Assembly: GCA_964592155.1 (NCBI GenBank)
Contig: CAZQDA010000001.1
Span: forward strand, 17,149-81,148
Origin: an uncultured Christensenella sp.
GTDB lineage: Bacteria > Bacillota > Clostridia > Christensenellales > Christensenellaceae
DNA: 64,000 nucleotides
Direction: 5' to 3'
Translations under genes and position numbers: made by a program
Notes under the pieces: model-generated
What the model was told of the DNA's origin: nothing
Databases searched by the model: none
Seen by the model: the letters and a program-made list of their open reading frames with translations, nothing else
In this document: positions 29,104 through 50,540 of the stretch, one piece after another
How the letters are laid out: the number at the start of each line of letters is the position of its first letter
Numbering within the stretch: the first letter of the stretch is position 1

Positions 29104-29499
29104 ATGAAAAAAATTATTACATTTATTTTTGCATCAATGGTTATGACCTCATGTTTCAACACAAAACAGACGGTGCAAATTGAAAACATTCTCAATGTGG
29201 AGGGTGTAGATATCGAAGGCGTGGATGGGACGTTATACAATGCCGCAGCACTATTCTTTAATGACGGCGACGAATTGGTTGGGTCGGTAGGATTTAATGA
29301 CATCAAACCTTTCACAACGTCGAAAAAAGTAGACGCGCCAAATAGAGCCTCTTATTTTATTGTCAAATGGCGAGCAACACCCGAAACAAATGCTATTCTA
29401 TACGAATTGGAATTCTATACCGCAGAGAAACGTTATCTGTCTGAAAGTGGCAATACAAAGATGACGATTAGCAGAACCACGCAAACAAAAACTAAATAA
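29104..29499 (+). CDS. Lipoprotein
   Basis: Signal peptide MKKIITFIFASMVMTS-C with lipobox cysteine. Confidence 0.75.
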   Translation: MKKIITFIFASMVMTSCFNTKQTVQIENILNVEGVDIEGVDGTLYNAAALFFNDGDELVGSVGFNDIKPFTTSKKVDAPNRASYFIVKWRATPETNAILYELEFYTAEKRYLSESGNTKMTISRTTQTKTK

Positions 29500-29545
29500 A
29501 ATAAAAAAAAATACGCAAAGACTTGCATAATTGAAAAATTTGTTT

Positions 29546-29553
29546 TATCTTTG
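29546..29553 (+). promoter_or_regulatory. Bacteroidota promoter of tRNA cluster 1
   Basis: TATCTTTG with TTGCA upstream. Confidence 0.75.
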
Positions 29554-29594
29554 CACCATGCTTTTTAATTATTCTAATAATTTCCATTTTTCGA

Positions 29595-29654
29595 ATACGT
29601 CAGTTGTGAAAACTCATGTATCGACGAGGTGGCCTCTCGATAAAAAGGCTAAAT
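29595..29654 (+). ncRNA. Structured tRNA-operon leader (hairpin plus H-type pseudoknot), copy 1
   Basis: Homologous to 37878-37934 with compensatory substitutions. Confidence 0.6.
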
Positions 29655-29739
29655 GCTCCAATGGTGAAATGGTAGACACGAAGGACTTAAAATCCTTTGA
29701 ACTGAAAAGTTCGTGCAGATTCGACTTCTGCTTGGAGTA
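29655..29739 (+). tRNA. tRNA-Leu(TAA)
   Basis: Acceptor GCTCCAA/TTGGAGT, anticodon arm AAGGA-CTTAAAA-TCCTT, long variable arm, T-loop TTCGACT; no encoded CCA. Confidence 0.92.
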
Positions 29740-29744
29740 CAAAT

Positions 29745-29816
29745 TTCGTCATAGCTCAATGGATAGAGCATCGGATTTCTAATCCGAGTATCAAAGTTCG
29801 ATTCTTTGTGACGAAA
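29745..29816 (+). tRNA. tRNA-Arg(TCT)
   Basis: Acceptor TTCGTCA/TGACGAA, anticodon arm TCGGA-TTTCTAA-TCCGA, T-loop TTCGATT. Confidence 0.9.
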
Positions 29817-29843
29817 CAATTTGGAAAAATGAAAATAAAGTAT

Positions 29844-29994
29844 TATATTTGAAGTGTTATTAAAAGTGCCTTTAGCTCAGTTGGTTAGAGCAACTGACTC
29901 ATAATCAGTAGGTCGTCGGATCATACCCGGCAAGGCACACTAATAGATTTATAACGTAACAAAAAGCGCTATTTAAAAATTAATGCTATATTTG
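29844..29994 (+). promoter_or_regulatory. Internal -7 promoter elements (29844-29851 and 29987-29994) ahead of individual tRNAs
   Basis: TATATTTG twice. Confidence 0.5.
29866..29939 (+). tRNA. tRNA(CAT), probably Ile2 (lysidine type), otherwise elongator Met
   Basis: Acceptor GTGCCTT/AAGGCAC with C4-G69 and C5-G68; anticodon arm ACTGA-CTCATAA-TCAGT; atypical T-loop ATCATAC. Confidence 0.8.
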
Positions 29995-30079
29995 CATATT
30001 GTTTATAGTGAATATAGGTTTTTAATTTTTTAATTGTTTTAATTTTGAGTTTTACAGTTCTCGTAAAAAACTGTAATTT

Positions 30080-30152
30080 GGCGAAGTGGGTGAGTGTTTT
30101 AGCCAAATGCCTGCAAAGCATTGTTACACCTGTTAGAATCAGGTCTTCGCCT
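30080..30152 (+). tRNA. tRNA-Cys(GCA)
   Basis: Acceptor GGCGAAG/CTTCGCC, discriminator T, anticodon arm AATGC-CTGCAAA-GCATT; T-loop TTAGAAT. Confidence 0.85.
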
Positions 30153-30185
30153 CTAACCGTAATTCAGCGGTTGCTTAAAATTTTG

Positions 30186-30280
30186 ATCTATGAAAAGAAT
30201 GTTTTCTTTGACGAAGATTGCCAAACGACGGCAGCAGTGGAGAGGCTTATAAGCCCCCACTTAAATCAAAGAAAGTAGAT
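30186..30280 (+). ncRNA. Candidate three-way-junction RNA between tRNA-Cys and tRNA-fMet
   Basis: Stems ATCTA/TAGAT, TTTCTTTGA/TCAAAGAAA, TGCC/GGCA, AGTGG/CCACT and GGCT/AGCC. Confidence 0.45.
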
Positions 30281-30299
30281 TGAAGTTAGGCAAAAAGAA

Positions 30300-30372
30300 T
30301 GCGAGATGGAGCAGTTGGTAGCTCGTTAGGCTCATAACCTAAAGGTGGCAGGTTCGATCCCTGCTCTCGCTA
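30300..30372 (+). tRNA. Initiator-type tRNA-fMet(CAT)
   Basis: 1:72 mismatch (T:T), D arm GAGCAGTTGGTAGCTC, anticodon arm TTAGG-CTCATAA-CCTAA, T-loop TTCGATC. Confidence 0.85.
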
Positions 30373-30442
30373 CAAATTTGGGTGACATGACACTCAAAAG
30401 TAGAACATACATTCTATGAAGATTTATTAGCATTGCTAAAAT

Positions 30443-30484
30443 AGCCTTTGAGAAGTGTATGATTCTTAAAGGCTTTTTTATTTT
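30443..30484 (+). terminator. Intrinsic terminator of tRNA cluster 1
   Basis: AGCCTTTGAGAA/TTCTTAAAGGCT stem followed by a T-tract. Confidence 0.8.
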
Positions 30485-30491
30485 ATACAAA

Positions 30492-30696
30492 GCCCTGAAA
30501 AATACATAGCAGTTGACACATCCCATACTGCACAGGCACATGCGCTAAATTACATGTAAAATGGGATTAAGTATTTTTAGATGCTCATTAAAAATCTCGC
30601 TCTGTATATCCCTACAACGAGTACCTGACAAGAAAAATGAGTAATGCCAAAATGGTAAGTAGTGAGGATTCCATCTGCGAAATGCAGTTCAGGGGC
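30492..30696 (+). ncRNA. Candidate multibranch non-coding RNA of about 205 nt
   Basis: Closing stem CCCTGAA/TTCAGGG plus at least six internal stems; no ORF. Confidence 0.5.
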
Positions 30697-32642: not shown

Positions 32643-33442
32643 ATGATTACAACACTTGAAAGAGCCCAAGAGCTTGCAGAAAAATGGAATGCACTAACCG
32701 ACGATATGGATAGGCTACAATTTCTAAAAGATCATAATACAGAAATGATGGCTGTATTAGATTATGATTGTACAATGGTAGATTTTATATTTGATGATAA
32801 TATTGATTATGAATCGAGAGAATGTATATTTAATATTAATCTTAATGAATTTCATGATTATCATTATTTTTCTACTGGATGCCTTAAACTTTTTGAATTT
32901 GCAGGAATTAAAGCTACTTCACGTTAAAAATTTAATAAAATGAATAAATTTAAAAGTCTCGCTCGAACTAATTTAAAATGCCCTATATGCGGGAGTAGGA
33001 TGTCTATGTTAGGTATTACACCACAAGAGGGAACTTATACCAGCAAGGGCGAAACAAAACCAAAGGATATGCTATTTGCGGCTCGATGTCAAGTTTGTGC
33101 CACAAATATATATACTCCACTTAACGAAGGAAAATCTGTAAAAGATGTTGATGGACGTTGCATTTTAACATGGAAGAAATAACAGGCAATAATAAGATCA
33201 TTTACGACTGTATTTATAGGCACATATCTCACGTTATTTCGATTAATTTTGGAAAGCCTATATTCTACTATATTTGGCTATCAAAATGGATTAAAATGGA
33301 CGATAATTACATTAAATTAAGTTGTAGATGGCTTGTGGATAATGGGTATTTAATTTCCGATATAGTTGGTGAGTATTTGATATTTATGTTGCCTGAAAGT
33401 GAATTTGAGAAAATTAAAAACAAACAAAATAAAAAATTATGA
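32643..33442 (+). other. Three small genes: 32643-32927, 32940-33182 (Zn-ribbon, CPICG...CQVC), about 33158-33442
   Basis: ORF track. Confidence 0.55.
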
Positions 33443-33867
33443 CACTTGAGGATGCTATTATAATTGCATGTATGGCTCACGAAGGACAGAAAGACAAGGC
33501 GGATAATCCGTATATTTTTCATTGTATTCATGTAATGCAGAACGTTATAGGTGGATTGGATTATCAGATTACAGCAGTGCTCCATGATGTTTTGGAGGAT
33601 TCAGACATATCTATTTACGAACTTAAACTTATGGGTCTAAATGAAAAATGCTGTGATGCTCTTATATGCCTCACAAGAGGTAAAAAAGAGGATTATTCCG
33701 AATATATTGATCGTATTAAGACGAATGATATTGCACGCGAGGTAAAGCGTGCTGATTTGATTCATAATATGGATTTAGAACGTCTGCACAAGATCACAAG
33801 TAAGGACATTCAACGAAGAGAAAAATACATGCGAGCGTATGATATTTTAAACAATTTTAATAAATAA
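33439..33867 (+). CDS. HD-domain hydrolase, small alarmone hydrolase (RelA/SpoT hydrolase, Mesh1)-like
   Basis: AHEGQKDK...PYIFH, AVLHDVLED, VKRADLIHN motifs. Confidence 0.8.
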   Translation: MTLEDAIIIACMAHEGQKDKADNPYIFHCIHVMQNVIGGLDYQITAVLHDVLEDSDISIYELKLMGLNEKCCDALICLTRGKKEDYSEYIDRIKTNDIAREVKRADLIHNMDLERLHKITSKDIQRREKYMRAYDILNNFNK

Positions 33868-35997: not shown

Positions 35998-37152
35998 ATG
36001 AAAAAATTAATTTGTAATAACGGTAAAGAGTATAGCTCTGTAATGGAATTTTGTAGGGAATATGAGATCCCTAAAAGTACCGTTCATGAGAATTTACAAA
36101 AAAAAGGTCGATTTGATAGGGGTGATGTTTCGGTTTGGTGGGAAGATATGGTAGTGCAAGATGTAATTGAGGCACATAAAAAACAGAAAGAAACATTATC
36201 TGACAAACAAATTATCAAACAGCTGACCGAGGAAACAATTAGGCTCAAAAAGCAAGTTGAGATTAAGGATGCGCTAAAATCTGTAAAACCGTCTCCTATT
36301 GTTGCTAAATATCAGAGCAGTGATACCGAGAGTACGGCGGTTTGTTTGTTTAGTGATTTGCACCTCGAAAAAGATATTGACCCCGAAACGGTAGGTTTTT
36401 TGAATGAATACAATATTGACATTGCAATAAAGCGTGCTGAAAAATTCTTTATTAAAGTAGCTAAAATATTGGAGGCAGAATCACATAATACTCGAATTGA
36501 GCATTTGGTTTTAGGAGTGTTGGGGGATTTGATTGAAGGTGAGCTGAGGCTTGAGGCATCTCAGACAAATAACGCATCTCCCTTAGAGGCAATTATGATT
36601 GCTAAAGATATTTTAATTAGAGGATTGGAGTACTTGGATAACAATACTACTGTCAATAAGATAACAGTAATTACCTGCATTGCGAACCACAGCCGAAATA
36701 CGCAAAAGATACATCACACTAATCAGGCAGAGGTGAATCTTGAATATATGATATACAAGGATATACAGAGAGTATTTGCAAATAAACCGAATACTAAAAT
36801 TGAGGTTATAGCATCTAAATCTGCATTGACCACTATTGATATTTATGGCAAAAATATTTCGTTTACACACGGGCATCATACTCGCTATCTCGGTGGGTGC
36901 GGAGGGATTATGATACCATTGAATAAATATTTTGCAAGCCTTAATAATAGACAACGAACTGACCTTTTGTGTATTGGTCATTATCACGATTTGCTATTTA
37001 ATAGAAATATTATTGTTAATGGGTCAATTTGCGGGACAGATAGCTTTGCCTATAATCTTAATTTGCCACATCAAGAACCACAACAAGCATTTTTCTTAAT
37101 TAATCAAAAGTACGGTATAAGTAAGATGATGCCTATATTTTGTAAAGAATAA
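35998..37152 (+). CDS. Calcineurin-like metallophosphoesterase with N-terminal HTH and coiled coil
   Basis: SDLH, GDLIEG, ANHSR, THGH, IGHYH and NGS motifs. Confidence 0.85.
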   Translation: MKKLICNNGKEYSSVMEFCREYEIPKSTVHENLQKKGRFDRGDVSVWWEDMVVQDVIEAHKKQKETLSDKQIIKQLTEETIRLKKQVEIKDALKSVKPSPIVAKYQSSDTESTAVCLFSDLHLEKDIDPETVGFLNEYNIDIAIKRAEKFFIKVAKILEAESHNTRIEHLVLGVLGDLIEGELRLEASQTNNASPLEAIMIAKDILIRGLEYLDNNTTVNKITVITCIANHSRNTQKIHHTNQAEVNLEYMIYKDIQRVFANKPNTKIEVIASKSALTTIDIYGKNISFTHGHHTRYLGGCGGIMIPLNKYFASLNNRQRTDLLCIGHYHDLLFNRNIIVNGSICGTDSFAYNLNLPHQEPQQAFFLINQKYGISKMMPIFCKE

Positions 37153-37656: not shown

Positions 37657-37833
37657 AAATAGAAAACGGCAAAATAATAGAGGCAACAGAGCAAGAACTA
37701 TGGCAATATTGGTGCAATAGAGAGCTATATGATGCAGTTGATTGGCATAGTTATTTTGCACAGATGAAAAGTGCAGGTGTAAAAATATTAAAAGAAAATT
37801 AACGAATGTATTGCATATATCAAAAAAAATGTT

Positions 37834-37841
37834 TACCTTTG
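37834..37841 (+). promoter_or_regulatory. Bacteroidota promoter of tRNA cluster 2
   Basis: TACCTTTG with TTGCA upstream; flanks resemble the cluster 1 promoter. Confidence 0.75.
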
Positions 37842-37877
37842 CACTATGTTTTTCAATCATGACTTAGAATCATTTTG

Positions 37878-37934
37878 ATAACTCCGTTGTGAAACTCGGT
37901 TATTGACGTGATGGCTCACGTTAAAAAGCCAAAT
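37878..37934 (+). ncRNA. Structured tRNA-operon leader (hairpin plus H-type pseudoknot), copy 2
   Basis: ATAA/TTAT + CCG/CGG + GTT-GTGA-AAC hairpin; CGTG/CACG stem with loop TGGCT pairing AGCCA. Confidence 0.6.
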
Positions 37935-38006
37935 GCTCGGTTCGTCTATCGGTTAGGACACAAGATTTTCATTCTTGAAAGGCGATTTCGACTATCGCAC
38001 CGAGTA
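37935..38006 (+). tRNA. tRNA-Glu(TTC)
   Basis: Acceptor GCTCGGT/ACCGAGT, anticodon arm CAAGA-TTTTCAT-TCTTG, T arm GCGAT-TTCGACT-ATCGC. Confidence 0.88.
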
Positions 38007-38011
38007 CTAAT

Positions 38012-38208
38012 CTAAATGTGGCGGAAGACAGACGCTAATATTTACGGTAGAGAGTAGTTCATAGGCTTGCTGCATTAGAACAAGTTGCGTAAATAAAAGT
38101 AAATACAGATGTACTTAAAATTGGTGAAAATCATAACGTATATCCTACAATTGTAGTGGCAACTAACACCAATAAAACTCGTGCAGGTATTAAATCCTGC
38201 CATTTAGC
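38012..38208 (+). ncRNA. tRNA-like RNA with about 145 nt replacing the anticodon/variable region
   Basis: Acceptor CTAAATG/CATTTAG, D-like TGGCGGAAGACAGACGC, T-like GCAGG-TATTAAAT-CCTGC. Confidence 0.65.
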
Positions 38209-38217
38209 TTAAATTAT

Positions 38218-38351
38218 AACCACTGAGGCGATATTAAGTTAGCACACTTCGGTATAATCTGAAAGCGCGTGAGTAAGATTAGGGTGTAAGAGGCACTACG
38301 GTAATCTCTATTTTCTTCATGCTTTTAGGATTGAGGTGTCTCTCGGTTGGT
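38218..38351 (+). ncRNA. Candidate multibranch RNA
   Basis: ACCA-CTGAG/CTCGG-TTGGT, ACAC/GTGT, AATCT/AGATT, GAGGCAC/GTGTCTC stems. Confidence 0.4.
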
Positions 38352-38386
38352 ATGGGGAATGACTGATAGGAATAGACTATCAATTT

Positions 38387-38458
38387 TGCTCTATGGTGTA
38401 ATTGGCAACACACAAACTTTTGGCGTTTGGATTTTAGATTCGAGTTCTGATGGAGCAA
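38387..38458 (+). tRNA. tRNA-Gln(TTG)
   Basis: Acceptor TGCTCTA/TGGAGCA, anticodon arm CAAAC-TTTTGGC-GTTTG, T arm TTAGA-TTCGAGT-TCTGA. Confidence 0.88.
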
Positions 38459-38495
38459 CAATGGCAATAAAGCCATTATATAAATACACAAATAT

Positions 38496-38768
38496 ATGTA
38501 CACATTAAGAAAAATTACAAACGAAAATGTAGAAATGAACATTGGATTAGGCAGTGAATACACTTTAATCCGAAAAGAAACATGCGAAAAAGAGTTTAAT
38601 TTCTTTTGTCAGCGATTTGATTACACAGATGAAGATGTTGAAAGAGATGGTATTTATGCTATTATTTCGAGTTATGATGGCAGTAAGTTAATTCCTTTAT
38701 ATAAATGTCAGTTGAACTTCATTATGACTGAAAACGGTAAAACTTTTTCAAATGTTACATTTAAGTAA
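38496..38768 (+). CDS. Hypothetical protein within tRNA cluster 2
   Basis: ORF track. Confidence 0.65.
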   Translation: MYTLRKITNENVEMNIGLGSEYTLIRKETCEKEFNFFCQRFDYTDEDVERDGIYAIISSYDGSKLIPLYKCQLNFIMTENGKTFSNVTFK

Positions 38769-38770
38769 CG

Positions 38771-38929
38771 CTTGCCCAAATGGTAAGTTGTATGGCGAGA
38801 GCTGAAAATGCTCCCGATCGCATTGCCTAAAGTTGCGCTCTTATCTTCGGGATAAGTTTAATATTCCCATTTGTCCCTGACTACAAACTTATGGGTGTAG
38901 ACGTGTAGTGTTCACGGTTATCAAAACAC
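38771..38929 (+). ncRNA. Candidate structured RNA ending in an H-type pseudoknot
   Basis: Series of hairpins; CGTG/CACG stem with loop GTGTT pairing AACAC. Confidence 0.45.
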
Positions 38930-38932
38930 ATT

Positions 38933-38962
38933 GAGCCTATCATTAACTTGGTAGGCTCTTTT
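38933..38962 (+). terminator. Intrinsic terminator ending the rightward arm
   Basis: GAGCCTATCA/TGGTAGGCTC stem followed by T4. Confidence 0.8.
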
Positions 38963-45100: not shown

Positions 45101-45224
45101 TTTCAGCTGTTATTAATACGGCCAATAGCCATTTTTTAAAATAGGACTTATCTATAAACTCTCCAGTGTCTTCGCATATTTTATTTATTAAAAGGCTCGC
45201 TACTCGGCTCTTAATTTCGCTCAT
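42151..45224 (-). other. Array of small hypothetical genes (42151-42357, 42344-42940, 42873-43154, 43151-43405, 43398-43625, 43628-43951, 43953-44444, 44625-44882, 44886-45224)
   Basis: Tightly packed co-oriented ORFs. Confidence 0.6.
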
Positions 45225-46213
45225 ATCATTTGTTTTTTAAAGTGGTCGATTAGTTCGGATGGAGTGGATTTAACCCAATTTTTACTCATATTTGACGTGC
45301 AAGTCTCCCAATCTCCAAATTTAATATCTCCTTTATTTGCAGTAATACAATCACAGCCGTCAATATATGACCGAACGCACGTGTAGTAATGGTATCTATC
45401 ATTCTCATCGTTGATAGCGGCTATGGCTTTATAGCAGTCTTTTGATATTTTAATCCAATTATAACCTCCTGCTTTGCCATTCCTAAACATAGCCGCAGCA
45501 ATATGCTTTATTCCCGTTCTTTCTGTCGCCTCCGAAATCGATATAAATACATTTACTACATTGCCATCAATATCTATTTGGGCGACTGGAGTTCCATTAT
45601 TTCGCTGTGATTTTGTCATATTTATTTTTTGTAATTCAGTCCTAATAGCTCCCGTATGTGAATTGGATATTTTTTCATTTCGTGTACCATAGTTATTATT
45701 ATATAAATGATTACACCATTCTAAATTATCAGCATTGTTATTGTGTTTATTTTCATCTTTATGATTGATGCAATCAAAATTATTCGGATTATCTATAAAT
45801 GCACTCGCAACTATTCGGTGTACAAGAATGGTTTTATTTCTCCCATTATTAGATAATATTGCTGTCATATATCCATTATGATTTTGCCTTTGCGAAAGCT
45901 TTTTGGTTGGCAAATACACATTATTACCATTAACAATAAATGACCTCTCTAATGATATGATTTCGCCATCAATAGACACCTTATATATTCCTTCATATCC
46001 AATAACATCACGCCATTCATTGGTTAGGTCATAACTACAATTATGCTTTCCATAACATCTTTTGCAACACATATTATATCCTCTTTTTGTGCTATTTCGC
46101 TTTGAGAACATATATGTTGGTAGCCATTCACGACATTCAGCACAAAGCATTTTACCCTCTTTGATTATAAAATGTTCCGCTATATATTTCCCGTTATTTT
46201 TTACTTTTTTCAT
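45221..46213 (-). CDS. NUMOD4-HNH-NUMOD1 homing endonuclease with N-terminal Zn finger and foreign C-terminal tail
   Basis: EWRDVIGYEGIYKVS (NUMOD4), VHRIVASAF...NHKDENKHNNNADNLEWC (HNH). Confidence 0.88.
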   Translation of the reverse strand: MKKVKNNGKYIAEHFIIKEGKMLCAECREWLPTYMFSKRNSTKRGYNMCCKRCYGKHNCSYDLTNEWRDVIGYEGIYKVSIDGEIISLERSFIVNGNNVYLPTKKLSQRQNHNGYMTAILSNNGRNKTILVHRIVASAFIDNPNNFDCINHKDENKHNNNADNLEWCNHLYNNNYGTRNEKISNSHTGAIRTELQKINMTKSQRNNGTPVAQIDIDGNVVNVFISISEATERTGIKHIAAAMFRNGKAGGYNWIKISKDCYKAIAAINDENDRYHYYTCVRSYIDGCDCITANKGDIKFGDWETCTSNMSKNWVKSTPSELIDHFKKQMI

Positions 46214-49656: not shown

Positions 49657-49730
49657 AAAAATTAAATTTTTCATTTATATCTCAACTATTTTTCGTATCT
49701 TTGCATATTAATAACTTAAAAATAAATAGT

Positions 49731-50540
49731 ATGCAAGAAGAAATTTGGAAAGACATTATTGGTTATGAGGGATTGTATCAGATTAGTAATTTAGGTAGGG
49801 TTAAATCATTACCTAAAAAATTAAAATGCAGGAATGGATTTTTTAGGATTAAAACAGAGAAAATAATACCAAATAGAATTAACAATAAGGGATATTTTAC
49901 TATCACGTTATGGAATAATTATAAATGTAAAACATTCCTTACTCATAGATTGATAGCAATTCATTTTATTCCTAATATAGAAAATAAACCATGTATAGAC
50001 CACATAGATACAGATAGGCTGAATAATAGCATTGATAATTTACGATGGTGTACTCATAAAGAAAACATGAATAATCCAATTTCTCTTATAAATAATAGTA
50101 CATCTAAGAAAGCATGCTCTTCAAGAACTAATAAAACAAAGAAAGAAAGAGGTCGTAAAACTGCTCCAAAAGATGTGTGCAGGTATGATTTACACGGGAA
50201 ATATATAGATACATTTTATAGTGCTACTGATGCGGAAAACAAAATAGGTATATCACAATCTGATATATCAGCATGCTGTCTAAAGAAAAAACCAAGTGCT
50301 GGTGGATATTTGTGGGCTTTCAGCGGGGATATTCCAAATGAATATAGACCATATCAATCTAAATGTAAAAAAGTAATACAATATGATTTACATGGTAGCT
50401 TAATTAAGGAATGGGATTCATTTAAAGAAGCCACTGAAATAACTGGGGTTAAAAATATATATAAATGCTGTGTTGGATTAAGAGCCAAAGCAGGTGGATA
50501 TAAATGGAAATATAAAGGAGAAGAAAATGCCGAAACGTAA
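49731..50540 (+). CDS. NUMOD4-HNH homing endonuclease with own promoter (TATCTTTG at 49696-49703)
   Basis: EEIWKDIIGYEGLYQISNLGRVKS; THRLIA...DHIDTDRLNNSIDNLRWC; two NUMOD1-like repeats. Confidence 0.9.
   Translation: MQEEIWKDIIGYEGLYQISNLGRVKSLPKKLKCRNGFFRIKTEKIIPNRINNKGYFTITLWNNYKCKTFLTHRLIAIHFIPNIENKPCIDHIDTDRLNNSIDNLRWCTHKENMNNPISLINNSTSKKACSSRTNKTKKERGRKTAPKDVCRYDLHGKYIDTFYSATDAENKIGISQSDISACCLKKKPSAGGYLWAFSGDIPNEYRPYQSKCKKVIQYDLHGSLIKEWDSFKEATEITGVKNIYKCCVGLRAKAGGYKWKYKGEENAET

What the first reader, a model, noticed from the sequence alone, without database searches (positions are those of the whole stretch)
29558..29654. Repeated hairpin plus H-type pseudoknot leader fused to the first tRNA of both tRNA operons, with compensatory changes
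Seen: both tRNA operons begin with promoter, then about 90-97 nt of leader, then AAAT, then tRNA. Leader 1 (29595-29654) and leader 2 (37878-37934) share a hairpin with a GTT-GTGA(A)-AAC tip, followed by a stem-loop whose loop pairs downstream of an A-run. The stem is CGAG/CTCG in one and CGTG/CACG in the other; the pseudoknot is TGGCC/GGCTA versus TGGCT/AGCCA. These are two independent compensatory substitutions, so structure is conserved while sequence drifts. A third element of the same topology (CGTG-TAGTGTT-CACG...AACAC, 38902-38929) sits just before the operon terminator. Inference: RNase P cleavage would release a small RNA with a protected pseudoknotted 3' end. Alternatives are an antitermination (nut-like) or processing signal, or a ligand-sensing fold; the topology resembles preQ1-I, but its conserved binding nucleotides are not evident.
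Basis: partly seen in the sequence, partly recalled or inferred. Interest (0 to 1): 0.75.

Follow-up and report, generated by a model that had tools for sequence, protein, structure and literature searches.

The report
Structured leader before phage tRNA operons
A gut Bacteroides-type phage starts both of its tRNA operons with the same folded ~90-nt leader RNA; its first hairpin belongs to a so-far undescribed hairpin family that sits just upstream of tRNA genes in several Bacteroidota phages, while the proposed pseudoknot is possible but not proven.

Summary
The repeat is real. Promoter plus leader of the two tRNA operons align over 170 nt (72% identity, E 3e-19), and 12 of 13 substitutions at paired positions keep the pairing.

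Hairpin 1 is not private to this phage. It has a GUGA loop, a GUU/AAC tip, a Y·C mismatch and a variable outer stem. The same design lies 2-27 nt upstream of tRNAs in crAss-like phages (cr272/cr273, Bohxovirus) and other IMG/VR contigs. It also lies between promoter and terminator ahead of late genes in three phages. Covariation across 15 copies is strong, and Rfam 15 has no matching family.

The second domain is found only here. Its 4-bp stem is supported. The "compensatory" pair claimed for the pseudoknot stem is ambiguous, because the same column also covaries as the closing pair of a plain UGGC-capped hairpin. That hairpin is at least as stable as the pseudoknot by a rough energy estimate.

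The third element is at chance level. preQ1-I membership fails.

Function is inferred only. I favour a promoter-proximal, factor-recognised leader that controls elongation of untranslated tRNA transcripts (nut/put-like). A tRNA-precursor processing or stability role is almost as likely. The leader would be removed by RNase P.

The parts
29523..29553 (+). Promoter of tRNA operon 1 (TTG ... TATCTTTG, Bacteroidetes -33/-7 type); inferred start near 29558
   Evidence: Regex scan. The same consensus occurs at about 12 other intergenic sites in the window. The start site is inferred from the known spacing of the -7 box.
29559..29570 (+). U-rich 5' box UGCUUUUUAAUU, shared only by the two tRNA leaders; weak boxA resemblance
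   Evidence: Alignments. Other promoters in the window are followed by A-rich starts. It matches 9 of the 10 specified positions of the gamma-proteobacterial boxA consensus GYTCTTTAANA, but C4, which is mutated in that paper's non-functional boxA mutant, is U here (PMC5725501).
29591..29624 (+). Hairpin 1 of leader 1: UCGA-a-UACGU-c-AGUU-[GUGAA]-AACU-c-AUGUA-UCGA
   Evidence: MFE fold and pair counts. It is homologous to leader 2. The family model R1 does not detect it, because it has a 5-nt loop and different flanks.
29625..29651 (+). Second domain of leader 1. S1 is CGAG 29625-28 / CUCG 29636-39. The loop carries UGGCC (29630-34), followed by the A-run 29640-46 and GGCUA 29647-51. It folds either as an H-type pseudoknot or as a longer register-shifted hairpin capped by UGG
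29652..29740 (+). AAU linker and tRNA-Leu(UAA), first gene of operon 1
   Evidence: ARAGORN; Rfam.
37811..37841 (+). Promoter of tRNA operon 2 (TTG ... TACCTTTG); inferred start near 37846
37847..37858 (+). U-rich 5' box UGUUUUUCAAUC
37875..37906 (+). Hairpin 1 of leader 2: UUGAUAACU-cc-GUU-[GUGA]-AAC-uc-GGUUAUUGA; a member of the GUGA-hairpin family
   Evidence: R1 scores 41.6 bits, E 3e-9, but it was a seed sequence. Pair counts.
37907..37931 (+). Second domain of leader 2. S1 is CGUG 37907-10 / CACG 37917-20. UGGCU is 37912-16, the linker 37921-26 and AGCCA 37927-31. The alternative is a 9-bp hairpin UUGACGUGA-[UGGC]-UCACGUUAA at 37903-37924
37932..38007 (+). AAU linker and tRNA-Glu(UUC), first gene of operon 2
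38902..38929 (+).
   Evidence: Sequence. It falls outside the shared geometry, and its frequency is at chance level.

Best explanation
Each tRNA operon is transcribed from a host-type promoter. It begins with a cis-acting, two-domain leader RNA that folds as it emerges from the polymerase.

Domain 1 is a long hairpin. Its GUGA(-like) loop, GUU/AAC tip and pyrimidine·C mismatch are conserved across distant Bacteroidota phages, while the outer stem only keeps complementarity. That is the signature of a recognition site for a protein, or for RNA polymerase itself. Domain 2 is a lineage-specific stem-loop. Its UGGC loop can either stay closed or pair with GCY downstream of an A-run, giving a pseudoknot.

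I propose that this leader works like a nut/put site. It marks the elongation complex, or shields the nascent RNA, so that the long untranslated tRNA transcripts are completed rather than ended prematurely, for example by Rho. RNase P then removes it at the AAAU|G junction.

Shown: the repeat, hairpin 1 and S1 covariation, the wider hairpin family, and its contexts. Inferred: transcription start, RNase P cleavage, any factor binding, and any effect on elongation.
For: - There is one copy per operon, about 35 nt after the inferred start. Both copies sit on operons that are about 0.9-1.1 kb and almost wholly untranslated.
- Structure is conserved between the paralogues: 43 of 44 cells pair, with 4 double compensations.
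- The hairpin family shows 92% pairing. Nine of 12 pairs change on both sides, while the tip UUGUGAAA is invariant. The covariation score is 0.62, against 0.23 in shuffles and 0.09-0.22 in slid controls.
- In three unrelated IMG/VR phages (L030, L031, L041) the same hairpin lies between a Bacteroidetes promoter and an intrinsic terminator, directly upstream of portal or capsid genes. This is the classical layout of antitermination control.
- Leader 1 has a GUGAA pentaloop where leader 2 has a GUGA tetraloop. This parallels lambda boxB, whose pentaloop folds like a GNRA tetraloop with one base flipped out (established knowledge).
- Two structurally similar, sequence-diverged, two-stem elements just after two promoters is also the layout of HK022 putL/putR (established knowledge).
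- A U-rich box resembling boxA follows both starts, and only these two.
Against: - No factor was identified. None of the roughly 40 ORFs scanned hits an antiterminator family.
- No internal terminator that would need read-through is evident in either operon.
- In crAss-like phages the hairpin sits 2-27 nt before individual tRNAs, twice in one short operon. That fits a per-tRNA processing role better than a once-per-operon signal.
- About half of the family members are followed by a U-run and look like terminators themselves.
- The boxA match lacks C4, which is mutated in the non-functional E. coli boxA mutant, and the Bacteroidota consensus was not available.
- Most family members were retrieved with a pattern that forced AAC..GTTGTGAAAC..GTT, so conservation of those bases is partly built in.
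- No RNA data exist for this phage.
Confidence: 0.35

Rival explanations
1. tRNA-precursor processing/stability module. The hairpin (plus the second stem-loop here) is a structural 5' cap on the precursor. It keeps leader or spacer RNA from mispairing with the tRNA body. It protects ends created by processing. It sets up a short single-stranded A/U-rich stretch for RNase P or RNase E/G-type cleavage. It may be recognised by a nuclease.
For: - The hairpin lies close to tRNA 5' ends in at least 5 further lineages. The spacers are 4 nt (L026), 2 nt (L038/L042/L045), 9 and 27 nt (cr273_1) and 2 nt (Bohxovirus).
- In the whole 97.9-kb cr273_1 genome the model finds 3 hits, 2 of them directly before tRNAs on the same strand.
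- The closest cultured relative by TerL (Bacteroides phage C3_41T2LP, 38% identity) has neither tRNAs nor hairpins.
- In the window, unrelated hairpins also end 3-4 nt before tRNA-Cys and tRNA-Gln.
- The AAAU at -4..-1 fits the RNase P leader preference (established knowledge).
Against: - The same hairpin occurs without any tRNA in L030, L031, L041, L037, L040 and in an array of five in L057.
- A generic insulating hairpin would not need a conserved loop and a conserved destabilising mismatch.
- A helix 2-4 nt from the cleavage site should hinder rather than help the RNase P protein, which binds single-stranded -4..-8 (established knowledge).
Confidence: 0.3
2. RNase P releases the ~90-nt leader as a stable small RNA, with a triphosphate 5' end and a pseudoknotted 3' end, which then acts in trans as a decoy or sponge for a host factor or RNA.
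For: - The leader is compactly folded, with z-scores of -1.7 to -2.7.
- The 3' end can be buried in S2.
- L057 shows five such hairpins in one intergenic RNA-like region ending in a terminator, the design of protein-sponge sRNAs.
Against: - There are no expression data for this phage.
- The pseudoknot is unproven.
- No target complementarity was found.
- In other phages the hairpin is a short spacer element rather than a discrete RNA.
Confidence: 0.1
3. Ligand-sensing pseudoknot (preQ1-I-like or another small H-type riboswitch) controlling tRNA output.
For: The topology matches: a short P1, a loop-to-tail P2 and an A-rich linker. The tail AUAAAAAGGCUAA loosely recalls the preQ1-I tail. Three self-complementary tetramers per leader allow mutually exclusive folds (noted from the sequence).
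Against: - No Rfam riboswitch family hits even at E<=10.
- The stems abut with 0-1 nt between them, so there is no pocket and no conserved ligand-pairing C.
- No terminator or start codon follows as an expression platform.
- No queuosine or 7-deazaguanine genes appear among the ORFs scanned.
- There are only two copies and no relatives.
Confidence: 0.03
4. Neutral remnant. One promoter-leader-tRNA cassette was duplicated within the phage, and the similarity is only shared ancestry. The hairpins are generic.
For: Only two paralogues exist. Domain 2 has no homologue anywhere searched. Runs holding the phage show no variants.
Against: - Of 13 substitutions at paired positions, 12 keep pairing, and 4 pairs changed on both sides.
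- Indels fall in loops and bulges.
- The downstream tRNAs are different (Leu versus Glu), so the leader was kept while the cargo differs.
- Hairpin 1 recurs in distant phages.
- In a pig-gut variant of cr273_1, 9 differences flank the hairpin+U-run (1099-1126 and 1178-1193) and none fall inside it (1127-1177).
Confidence: 0.07

Closest known systems
Lambda-type nut site (boxA + boxB hairpin bound by N)
   Same: Promoter-proximal RNA element with two copies per genome. It is a hairpin with a GNRA-type loop, where a tetraloop and a pentaloop version are interchangeable. A U-rich box lies nearby. In other phages the hairpin precedes a terminator and late genes.
   Different: The boxA match is imperfect, and the boxA-to-hairpin spacing is about 30 nt rather than about 8. 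The stem is much longer and has a conserved Y·C mismatch. No N-like protein was found. The host is Bacteroidota, where no such system is described to my knowledge.
HK022 putL/putR (factor-independent antiterminator RNA)
   Same: About 65 nt with two adjacent stem-loops just downstream of two promoters. The two copies differ in sequence but keep their structure.
   Different: There is no sequence or detailed structural similarity. put acts on enterobacterial RNAP beta-prime. Action without a protein cannot be tested here.
preQ1-I riboswitch (RF00522)
   Same: A small H-type pseudoknot topology with an A-rich third loop.
   Different: No covariance-model match, no ligand-pocket nucleotides, no expression platform, and the gene context is tRNAs rather than que genes.
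Intrinsic terminator hairpins with GNRA loops, including terminators of Bacteroides sRNAs (Rfam BTnc060 consensus ...GCuuuGUGAaaaGC...UUUUU)
   Same: The same UU-GUGA-AA tip. About half of the family members found here carry a U-run.
   Different: The window's two hairpins have no U-run, and they lie downstream of their promoter and upstream of the genes they serve.
rRNA look-alikes: cyanobacterial 5S rRNA (GAACUCAGUUGUGAAACGCUGUU).
   Same: An identical 10-22-nt string. The genome-wide pattern scan mostly retrieved 5S genes.
   Different: In 5S rRNA these bases are not a GNRA-capped hairpin; they pair with distant strands. I treat this as a coincidence of a short pattern and not as mimicry.

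Membership tests
preQ1-I riboswitch | Match to the Rfam covariance model RF00522 (or preQ1-II/III) | tested here: not met
   No hit in either leader, even at E<=10 with permissive filters.
preQ1-I riboswitch | Ligand pocket between P1 and P2, with a conserved C in L2 and a U in L1 | tested here: not met
   L1 is a single G/A and L2 is 0-1 nt (U or none), so S1 and S2 abut directly (sequence).
preQ1-I riboswitch | Expression platform and queuosine-related gene context | tested here: not met
   The pseudoknot is followed 3 nt later by a tRNA. No que, TGT or DpdA genes appear among the roughly 40 ORFs scanned.
Lambda-type nut site | boxA consensus (GYTCTTTAANA in gamma-proteobacteria) | tested here: inconclusive
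   L1 GCTTTTTAATT matches at 9 of the 10 specified positions, with C4->T. L2 GTTTTTCAATC matches at 7 of 10. The Bacteroidota consensus was not available.
Lambda-type nut site | boxB: a hairpin with a GNRA-like loop just downstream of the promoter | tested here: met
   GUGA (L2) and GUGAA (L1) loops closed by U-A, 45-50 nt from the inferred starts.
Lambda-type nut site | Cognate N-like arginine-rich antiterminator protein | tested here: not met
   No antiterminator family among the PHROG/Pfam hits. Many small ORFs remain unannotated, so absence is not shown.
Lambda-type nut site | Read-through of downstream terminators depends on the site | not testable with these tools
   Needs a reporter assay. 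In L030, L031 and L041 a terminator does follow the hairpin.
HK022 put RNA | Two adjacent stem-loops of about 65-70 nt after each of two promoters, with structure conserved between the copies | tested here: met
   This is a resemblance of layout only.
HK022 put RNA | Acts in cis on RNAP without protein factors | not testable with these tools
   Needs in vitro transcription.
Intrinsic terminator | G+C-containing hairpin immediately followed by a U-run | tested here: not met
   The window hairpins are followed by GACG... and the second domain by an A-run. The terminator scan lists only 30443-30474 and 38933-38958 as the operon ends.
GUGA-tip hairpin family defined here (model R1) | Stem, Y·C mismatch, N-GUU-GUGA-AAC-N' tip and a covarying outer stem | tested here: met
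   Leader 2 scores 41.6 bits but was a seed. Non-seed hits are cr273_1 36082-36123 (28.6 bits), 33263-33304 (26.5 bits) and Bohxovirus L021 1022-1063 (19.4 bits). Leader 1 is NOT detected by R1; it is tied to the family only through its homology to leader 2.
Any Rfam 15 family | Gathering-score match in the leader | tested here: not met
   for the window and for other family members. The best is Ref55 at 20-25 bits against a gathering score of 43, which is only a generic hairpin resemblance.

The most novel reading that the evidence does not exclude
The GUGA-tip hairpin with its conserved Y·C mismatch is a new, factor-recognised RNA signal of Bacteroidota phages, crAss-like phages included. 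It governs expression or maturation of phage tRNAs and, in some phages, of late genes. In this phage it is fused to a second domain that can toggle between a closed UGGC hairpin and an H-type pseudoknot, using three self-complementary tetramers. That would make the leader a conformational switch set next to the RNase P site.
Probability: 0.3. Interest if true: 0.7.

Novelty: new variant of a known kind. Interest (0 to 1): 0.5.

Why it matters
Phage-encoded tRNAs are common in gut Bacteroidota phages, including Crassvirales, but how their expression and processing are controlled is essentially unstudied.

A conserved, sequence-specific hairpin sits immediately upstream of tRNAs in several unrelated phage lineages. 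It also sits in promoter-terminator leaders of late genes. This would give a concrete handle on a transcription or RNA-processing control system in a phylum that lacks the classical N/Q paradigms and Hfq/ProQ/CsrA. The handle consists of a binding site to fish with, mutants to make, and a covariance model to scan with.

If the hairpin is only a structural spacer, the finding is a modest annotation of a new RNA motif.

Tried and rejected
**Homologues of the whole leader: none found**
- IMG/VR patterns GTTGTGAAAN{0,1}CTCN7GACG and GACGNGNTGGCN{5,10}AAAAAGNCNAAAT gave only chance hits in coding DNA and no tRNAs.
- The JGI metagenome pattern gave four chance hits.
- INPHARED blastn with the leader alone found nothing.
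- Relatives found through the neighbouring exonuclease are at most 45% identical, on short or non-syntenic contigs.

**Strain variation**
- The four runs holding the phage carry identical sequence.

**More copies in the same phage**
- About 10 kb beyond the window start and 2.5 kb beyond its end hold no tRNA and no hairpin.

**Host genomes**
- The GTDB scan with the hairpin pattern returned mainly cyanobacterial 5S rRNA genes and coding chance hits. I rejected these as mimicry.

**RNA evidence**
- Pig-gut metatranscriptomes hold cr273-like contigs, but contigs give no transcript ends.

**Ideas considered and dropped**
- A TGT-substrate or tRNA-His anticodon-loop mimic (UUGUGAA): the loop is a closed tetraloop and there is no queuosine context.
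- An integron attC-like or dsDNA operator reading: outer stems covary instead of conserving sequence, and the loop is always co-oriented with the tRNA.
- A T-box-like UGGN:NCCA pairing: the discriminator bases do not fit.
- tmRNA in the 380-nt gap: no ARAGORN or Rfam support.
- The GUGUAGA...UCAUUAAYUUGG unit shared with Cellulophaga phage phi4:1: no further non-coding copies.

**Literature**
- String and keyword searches found no description of the motif.

Full report
**What is there**

The window comes from a ~97-kb phage contig. Its terminase is most like that of Bacteroides phage C3_41T2LP, at 38% identity. It uses Bacteroidetes-type promoters throughout (TTG...TAnnTTTG). Four gut-metagenome runs carry it with no sequence variants.

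ARAGORN and Rfam find seven tRNAs in two co-oriented clusters:
- Operon 1 holds Leu-Arg-Met-Cys-Met (29655-30373) and ends at a terminator at 30443-30474.
- Operon 2 holds Glu, a 380-nt non-coding stretch, Gln and a 90-codon ORF (37935-38768), and ends at a terminator at 38933-38958.

Each operon starts with a consensus promoter. The leaders are about 97 and 89 nt long, counting from starts inferred from the -7 box spacing. Both leaders end in AAAU directly before the first tRNA.

**Is the repeat real?**

Yes. A sensitive blastn of the two regions against each other gives one outstanding match: 29493-29658 against 37780-37938, 72% identity over 170 columns, E 3e-19. Everything else scores E >= 0.007.

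Part of the match is simply the shared promoter consensus. The transcribed part, however, is specific to these two promoters. All other promoters in the window are followed by A-rich starts, whereas these two begin AUGCUUUUUAAU and AUGUUUUUCAAU.

**Hairpin 1**

Leader 1 folds as UCGA-a-UACGU-c-AGUU-[GUGAA]-AACU-c-AUGUA-UCGA (29591-29624). Leader 2 folds as UUGAUAACU-cc-GUU-[GUGA]-AAC-uc-GGUUAUUGA (37875-37906).

I built a gap-free two-row alignment by removing four unpaired leader-1 bases (A4). On it, the whole proposed structure pairs in 43 of 44 cells. Four pairs changed on both sides and four changed G-C/A-U to G-U. Partners slid by 1-3 columns pair at 30-39% with 0-1 double changes. Fifteen columns differ in total. 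Thirteen of them are at paired positions, and 12 of those 13 keep the pair. With only two rows the shuffle test bottoms out at 25/500.

**Hairpin 1 is a member of a wider family**

A look upstream of the tRNA-Leu homologue in the crAss-like phage cr273_1 showed ACUAAC-uuc-GUU-GUGA-AAC-gcg-GUUAGU, 27 nt before tRNA-Met.

The pattern AACNNNGTTGTGAAACNNNGTT found 26 IMG/VR loci. About half are chance hits inside genes. The other 13 are non-coding hairpins with extended, different, complementary outer stems:
- directly before tRNAs: L026 (4 nt), L038/L042/L045 (2 nt) and cr272/cr273;
- just after a tRNA, with a U-run (L024);
- between a Bacteroidetes promoter and an intrinsic terminator, immediately upstream of portal or capsid genes (L030, L031, L041);
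- as terminator-like hairpins (L037, L040).

A GTDB scan mostly pulled out cyanobacterial 5S rRNA, which happens to contain the string; I regard this as coincidence. It also pulled out one gut MAG contig (L057) with five UUGUGAAA-tipped hairpins in a single 450-nt intergenic region. Four of those five were not forced by the pattern.

Fifteen copies aligned without gaps (A3) give these results:
- 92% of cells are paired.
- Nine of 12 pairs change on both sides.
- The covariation score is 0.62, against 0.23 in shuffles (0/500) and 0.09-0.22 for slid partners.
- The tip UUGUGAAA is invariant.
- Four base pairs below the loop there is usually a pyrimidine·C mismatch flanked by U·G or U-A.

A covariance model (R1) then found copies that no pattern had forced:
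- a second hairpin 9 nt before tRNA-Leu of cr273_1;
- a GCGA-looped copy at 33263 in cr273_1;
- one copy 2 nt before an unannotated tRNA in a Bohxovirus.

Across the complete 97.9-kb cr273_1 genome there are only these three hits, and two sit directly before tRNAs on the same strand. So this is not that phage's generic terminator. The tRNA-less relative C3_41T2LP has none. No Rfam family covers these hairpins.

Three caveats apply. Most seeds were retrieved with a pattern that fixes 16 bases. I chose the non-coding ones by eye. R1 does not detect leader 1 at all; it has a pentaloop and different flanks, and its link to the family is its homology to leader 2.

**The second domain and the pseudoknot**

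Both leaders have CGNG...CNCG (S1), with A-U in one and U-A in the other. Both have a loop carrying UGGC(C/U), and a tail (G/A)GC(U/C)A after an A-run. This allows a compact H-type pseudoknot (S1 4 bp, S2 5 bp, joining loops 1, 0-1 and 6-7 nt).

A descriptor for that geometry hits only these two sites in the window, against 0.85 expected. An earlier A-rich-linker version otherwise hit only A/T-only, low-complexity sites.

- The one S2 pair that changes on both sides (C-G against U-A) uses a loop column. That column equally covaries with the base 5' of the loop (G-C against A-U), extending S1 into a hairpin capped by UGGC.
- Plain hairpins are the minimum-free-energy folds of the isolated domain. 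They score -10.6 kcal/mol for leader 1 (register-shifted, UGG loop) and -9.5 for leader 2 (9 bp, UGGC loop).
- The stacking energies of S1 plus S2 are -16.2 and -17.6 kcal/mol. A pseudoknot initiation penalty of about 7-10 kcal/mol still has to be added. That figure is my assumption from published pseudoknot energy models. The pseudoknot is therefore no better than comparable.
- Each leader contains three copies of a self-complementary tetramer: UCGA three times in leader 1, and UUGA, UUGA, UUAA in leader 2. The middle copy can close either hairpin 1 or hairpin 2. A C-G to U-A change supports the second option.

Two sequences cannot decide between these folds. No relative of domain 2 was found in IMG/VR, JGI metagenomes or INPHARED with the patterns used.

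**The third element**

CGUG-UA-GUGUU-CACG-GUUAUCAA-AACAC (38902-38929) is present. It needs an 8-nt, non-A-rich linker and shares nothing else with the leaders. It is what chance would supply once the linker range is widened.

It lies in a stretch that resembles the region upstream of the tRNA array of Cellulophaga phage phi4:1. Both have GUGUAGA, then a hairpin with the loop UCAUUAAYUUGG and compensated stems. A pattern scan found no further non-coding copies.

**What it does (inferred)**

The covarying stem with an invariant loop and a retained mismatch argues for recognition by a protein or by RNA polymerase at the RNA level. A double-stranded DNA operator would conserve sequence, not complementarity, and the loop is always co-oriented with the downstream gene.

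Two readings compete.

(a) *Elongation control of the nut/put kind.* The window has one promoter-proximal copy per untranslated operon. The loops are an interchangeable GNRA tetraloop and pentaloop, as in boxB. The layout is two stem-loops after two promoters, as in putL/putR. In three other phages the layout is promoter-hairpin-terminator-late genes. A boxA-like U-rich box is present, but it lacks C4, which is mutated in the non-functional E. coli boxA mutant.

(b) *A tRNA-precursor processing or stability module.* The 2-9-nt spacing to individual tRNAs in several phages favours this, as does the presence of other hairpins 3-4 nt before tRNA-Cys and tRNA-Gln in this window.

Neither reading explains everything. 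No cognate protein was identified, and no RNA data exist for this phage. I put (a) at about 0.35 and (b) at about 0.30. A trans-acting released leader gets 0.10, neutral duplication 0.07 and a riboswitch 0.03.

Removal of the leader by RNase P at AAAU|G follows from general knowledge of tRNA maturation and was not tested.

**Novelty**

The kind of thing, a structured cis-acting leader or hairpin motif, is familiar. This particular hairpin family, its association with phage tRNA genes, and the two-domain leader appear undescribed. There is no Rfam 15 family and no literature hit. I rate it a new variant of a known kind, of moderate interest.

Noticed in passing
window 38008-38386: A 380-nt non-coding stretch between tRNA-Glu and tRNA-Gln has no Rfam or ARAGORN match. 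It contains an open frame GENHNVYPTIVVATNTNKTRAGIKSCHLA*. The crAss-like phage cr273_1 carries a permuted tmRNA next to its hairpin-tRNA units, but no relationship was shown.
   Followed up: partly
window 30052-30076 and 38364-38382: Unrelated hairpins end 3-4 nt before tRNA-Cys and tRNA-Gln. So four of the seven tRNAs in the window have a helix abutting a short A/U linker at their 5' end.
   Followed up: partly
window 30645-30663 and 38773-38791: A 19-nt repeat TGCCnAAATGGTAAGTnGT (17/19 identical, E 0.13) lies in the non-coding stretch near the end of each tRNA operon (after the terminator of operon 1, before that of operon 2). Each copy opens a tiny ORF starting MVS.
   Followed up: no
window 38933-38958; L014 about 876-899 (Cellulophaga phage phi4:1): The operon-2 terminator hairpin has the loop UCAUUAACUUGG. 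This is nearly identical to the loop of a hairpin just upstream of the 23-tRNA array of phi4:1. The stems carry compensatory differences, and GUGUAGA lies upstream in both. An IMG/VR pattern scan found no other non-coding copies.
   Followed up: partly
L057 580-994 (contig CAKQPS010000003.1, gut MAG labelled Alphaproteobacteria): Five UUGUGAAA-tipped hairpins lie in one 450-nt intergenic region, upstream of a 958-aa ORF. The last hairpin doubles as a terminator. The layout looks like a multi-site sponge or decoy RNA.
   Followed up: partly
L021 1060-1131 (Bohxovirus PV686213.1) and L019 1012-1080 (cr273_1): Rfam finds tRNAs that the records do not annotate: 42.7 bits in the Bohxovirus, and 53.6 bits inside the annotated tmRNA of cr273_1.
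   Followed up: partly
window 29591/29621/29637 and 37875/37903/37921: Each leader carries three copies of a self-complementary tetramer (UCGA x3; UUGA, UUGA, UUAA). The middle copy can close either hairpin 1 or hairpin 2, which makes a mutually exclusive alternative fold possible.
   Followed up: partly
Genome-contig loci L049-L089 (cyanobacteria): The hairpin search string is identical to a segment of cyanobacterial 5S rRNA (GAACUCRGUUGUGAAACGCUGUU). Any pattern-based search for this motif will be swamped by 5S genes.
   Followed up: yes
window 33439-33867, 45221-46213 (-), 49701-50540 (+): An HD-domain phosphohydrolase (phrog_990) lies between the two tRNA operons. A NUMOD4/HNH/NUMOD1 homing-endonuclease-like gene (49701-50540) and a second ORF with only a NUMOD4 motif (45221-46213) lie downstream.
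   Followed up: no
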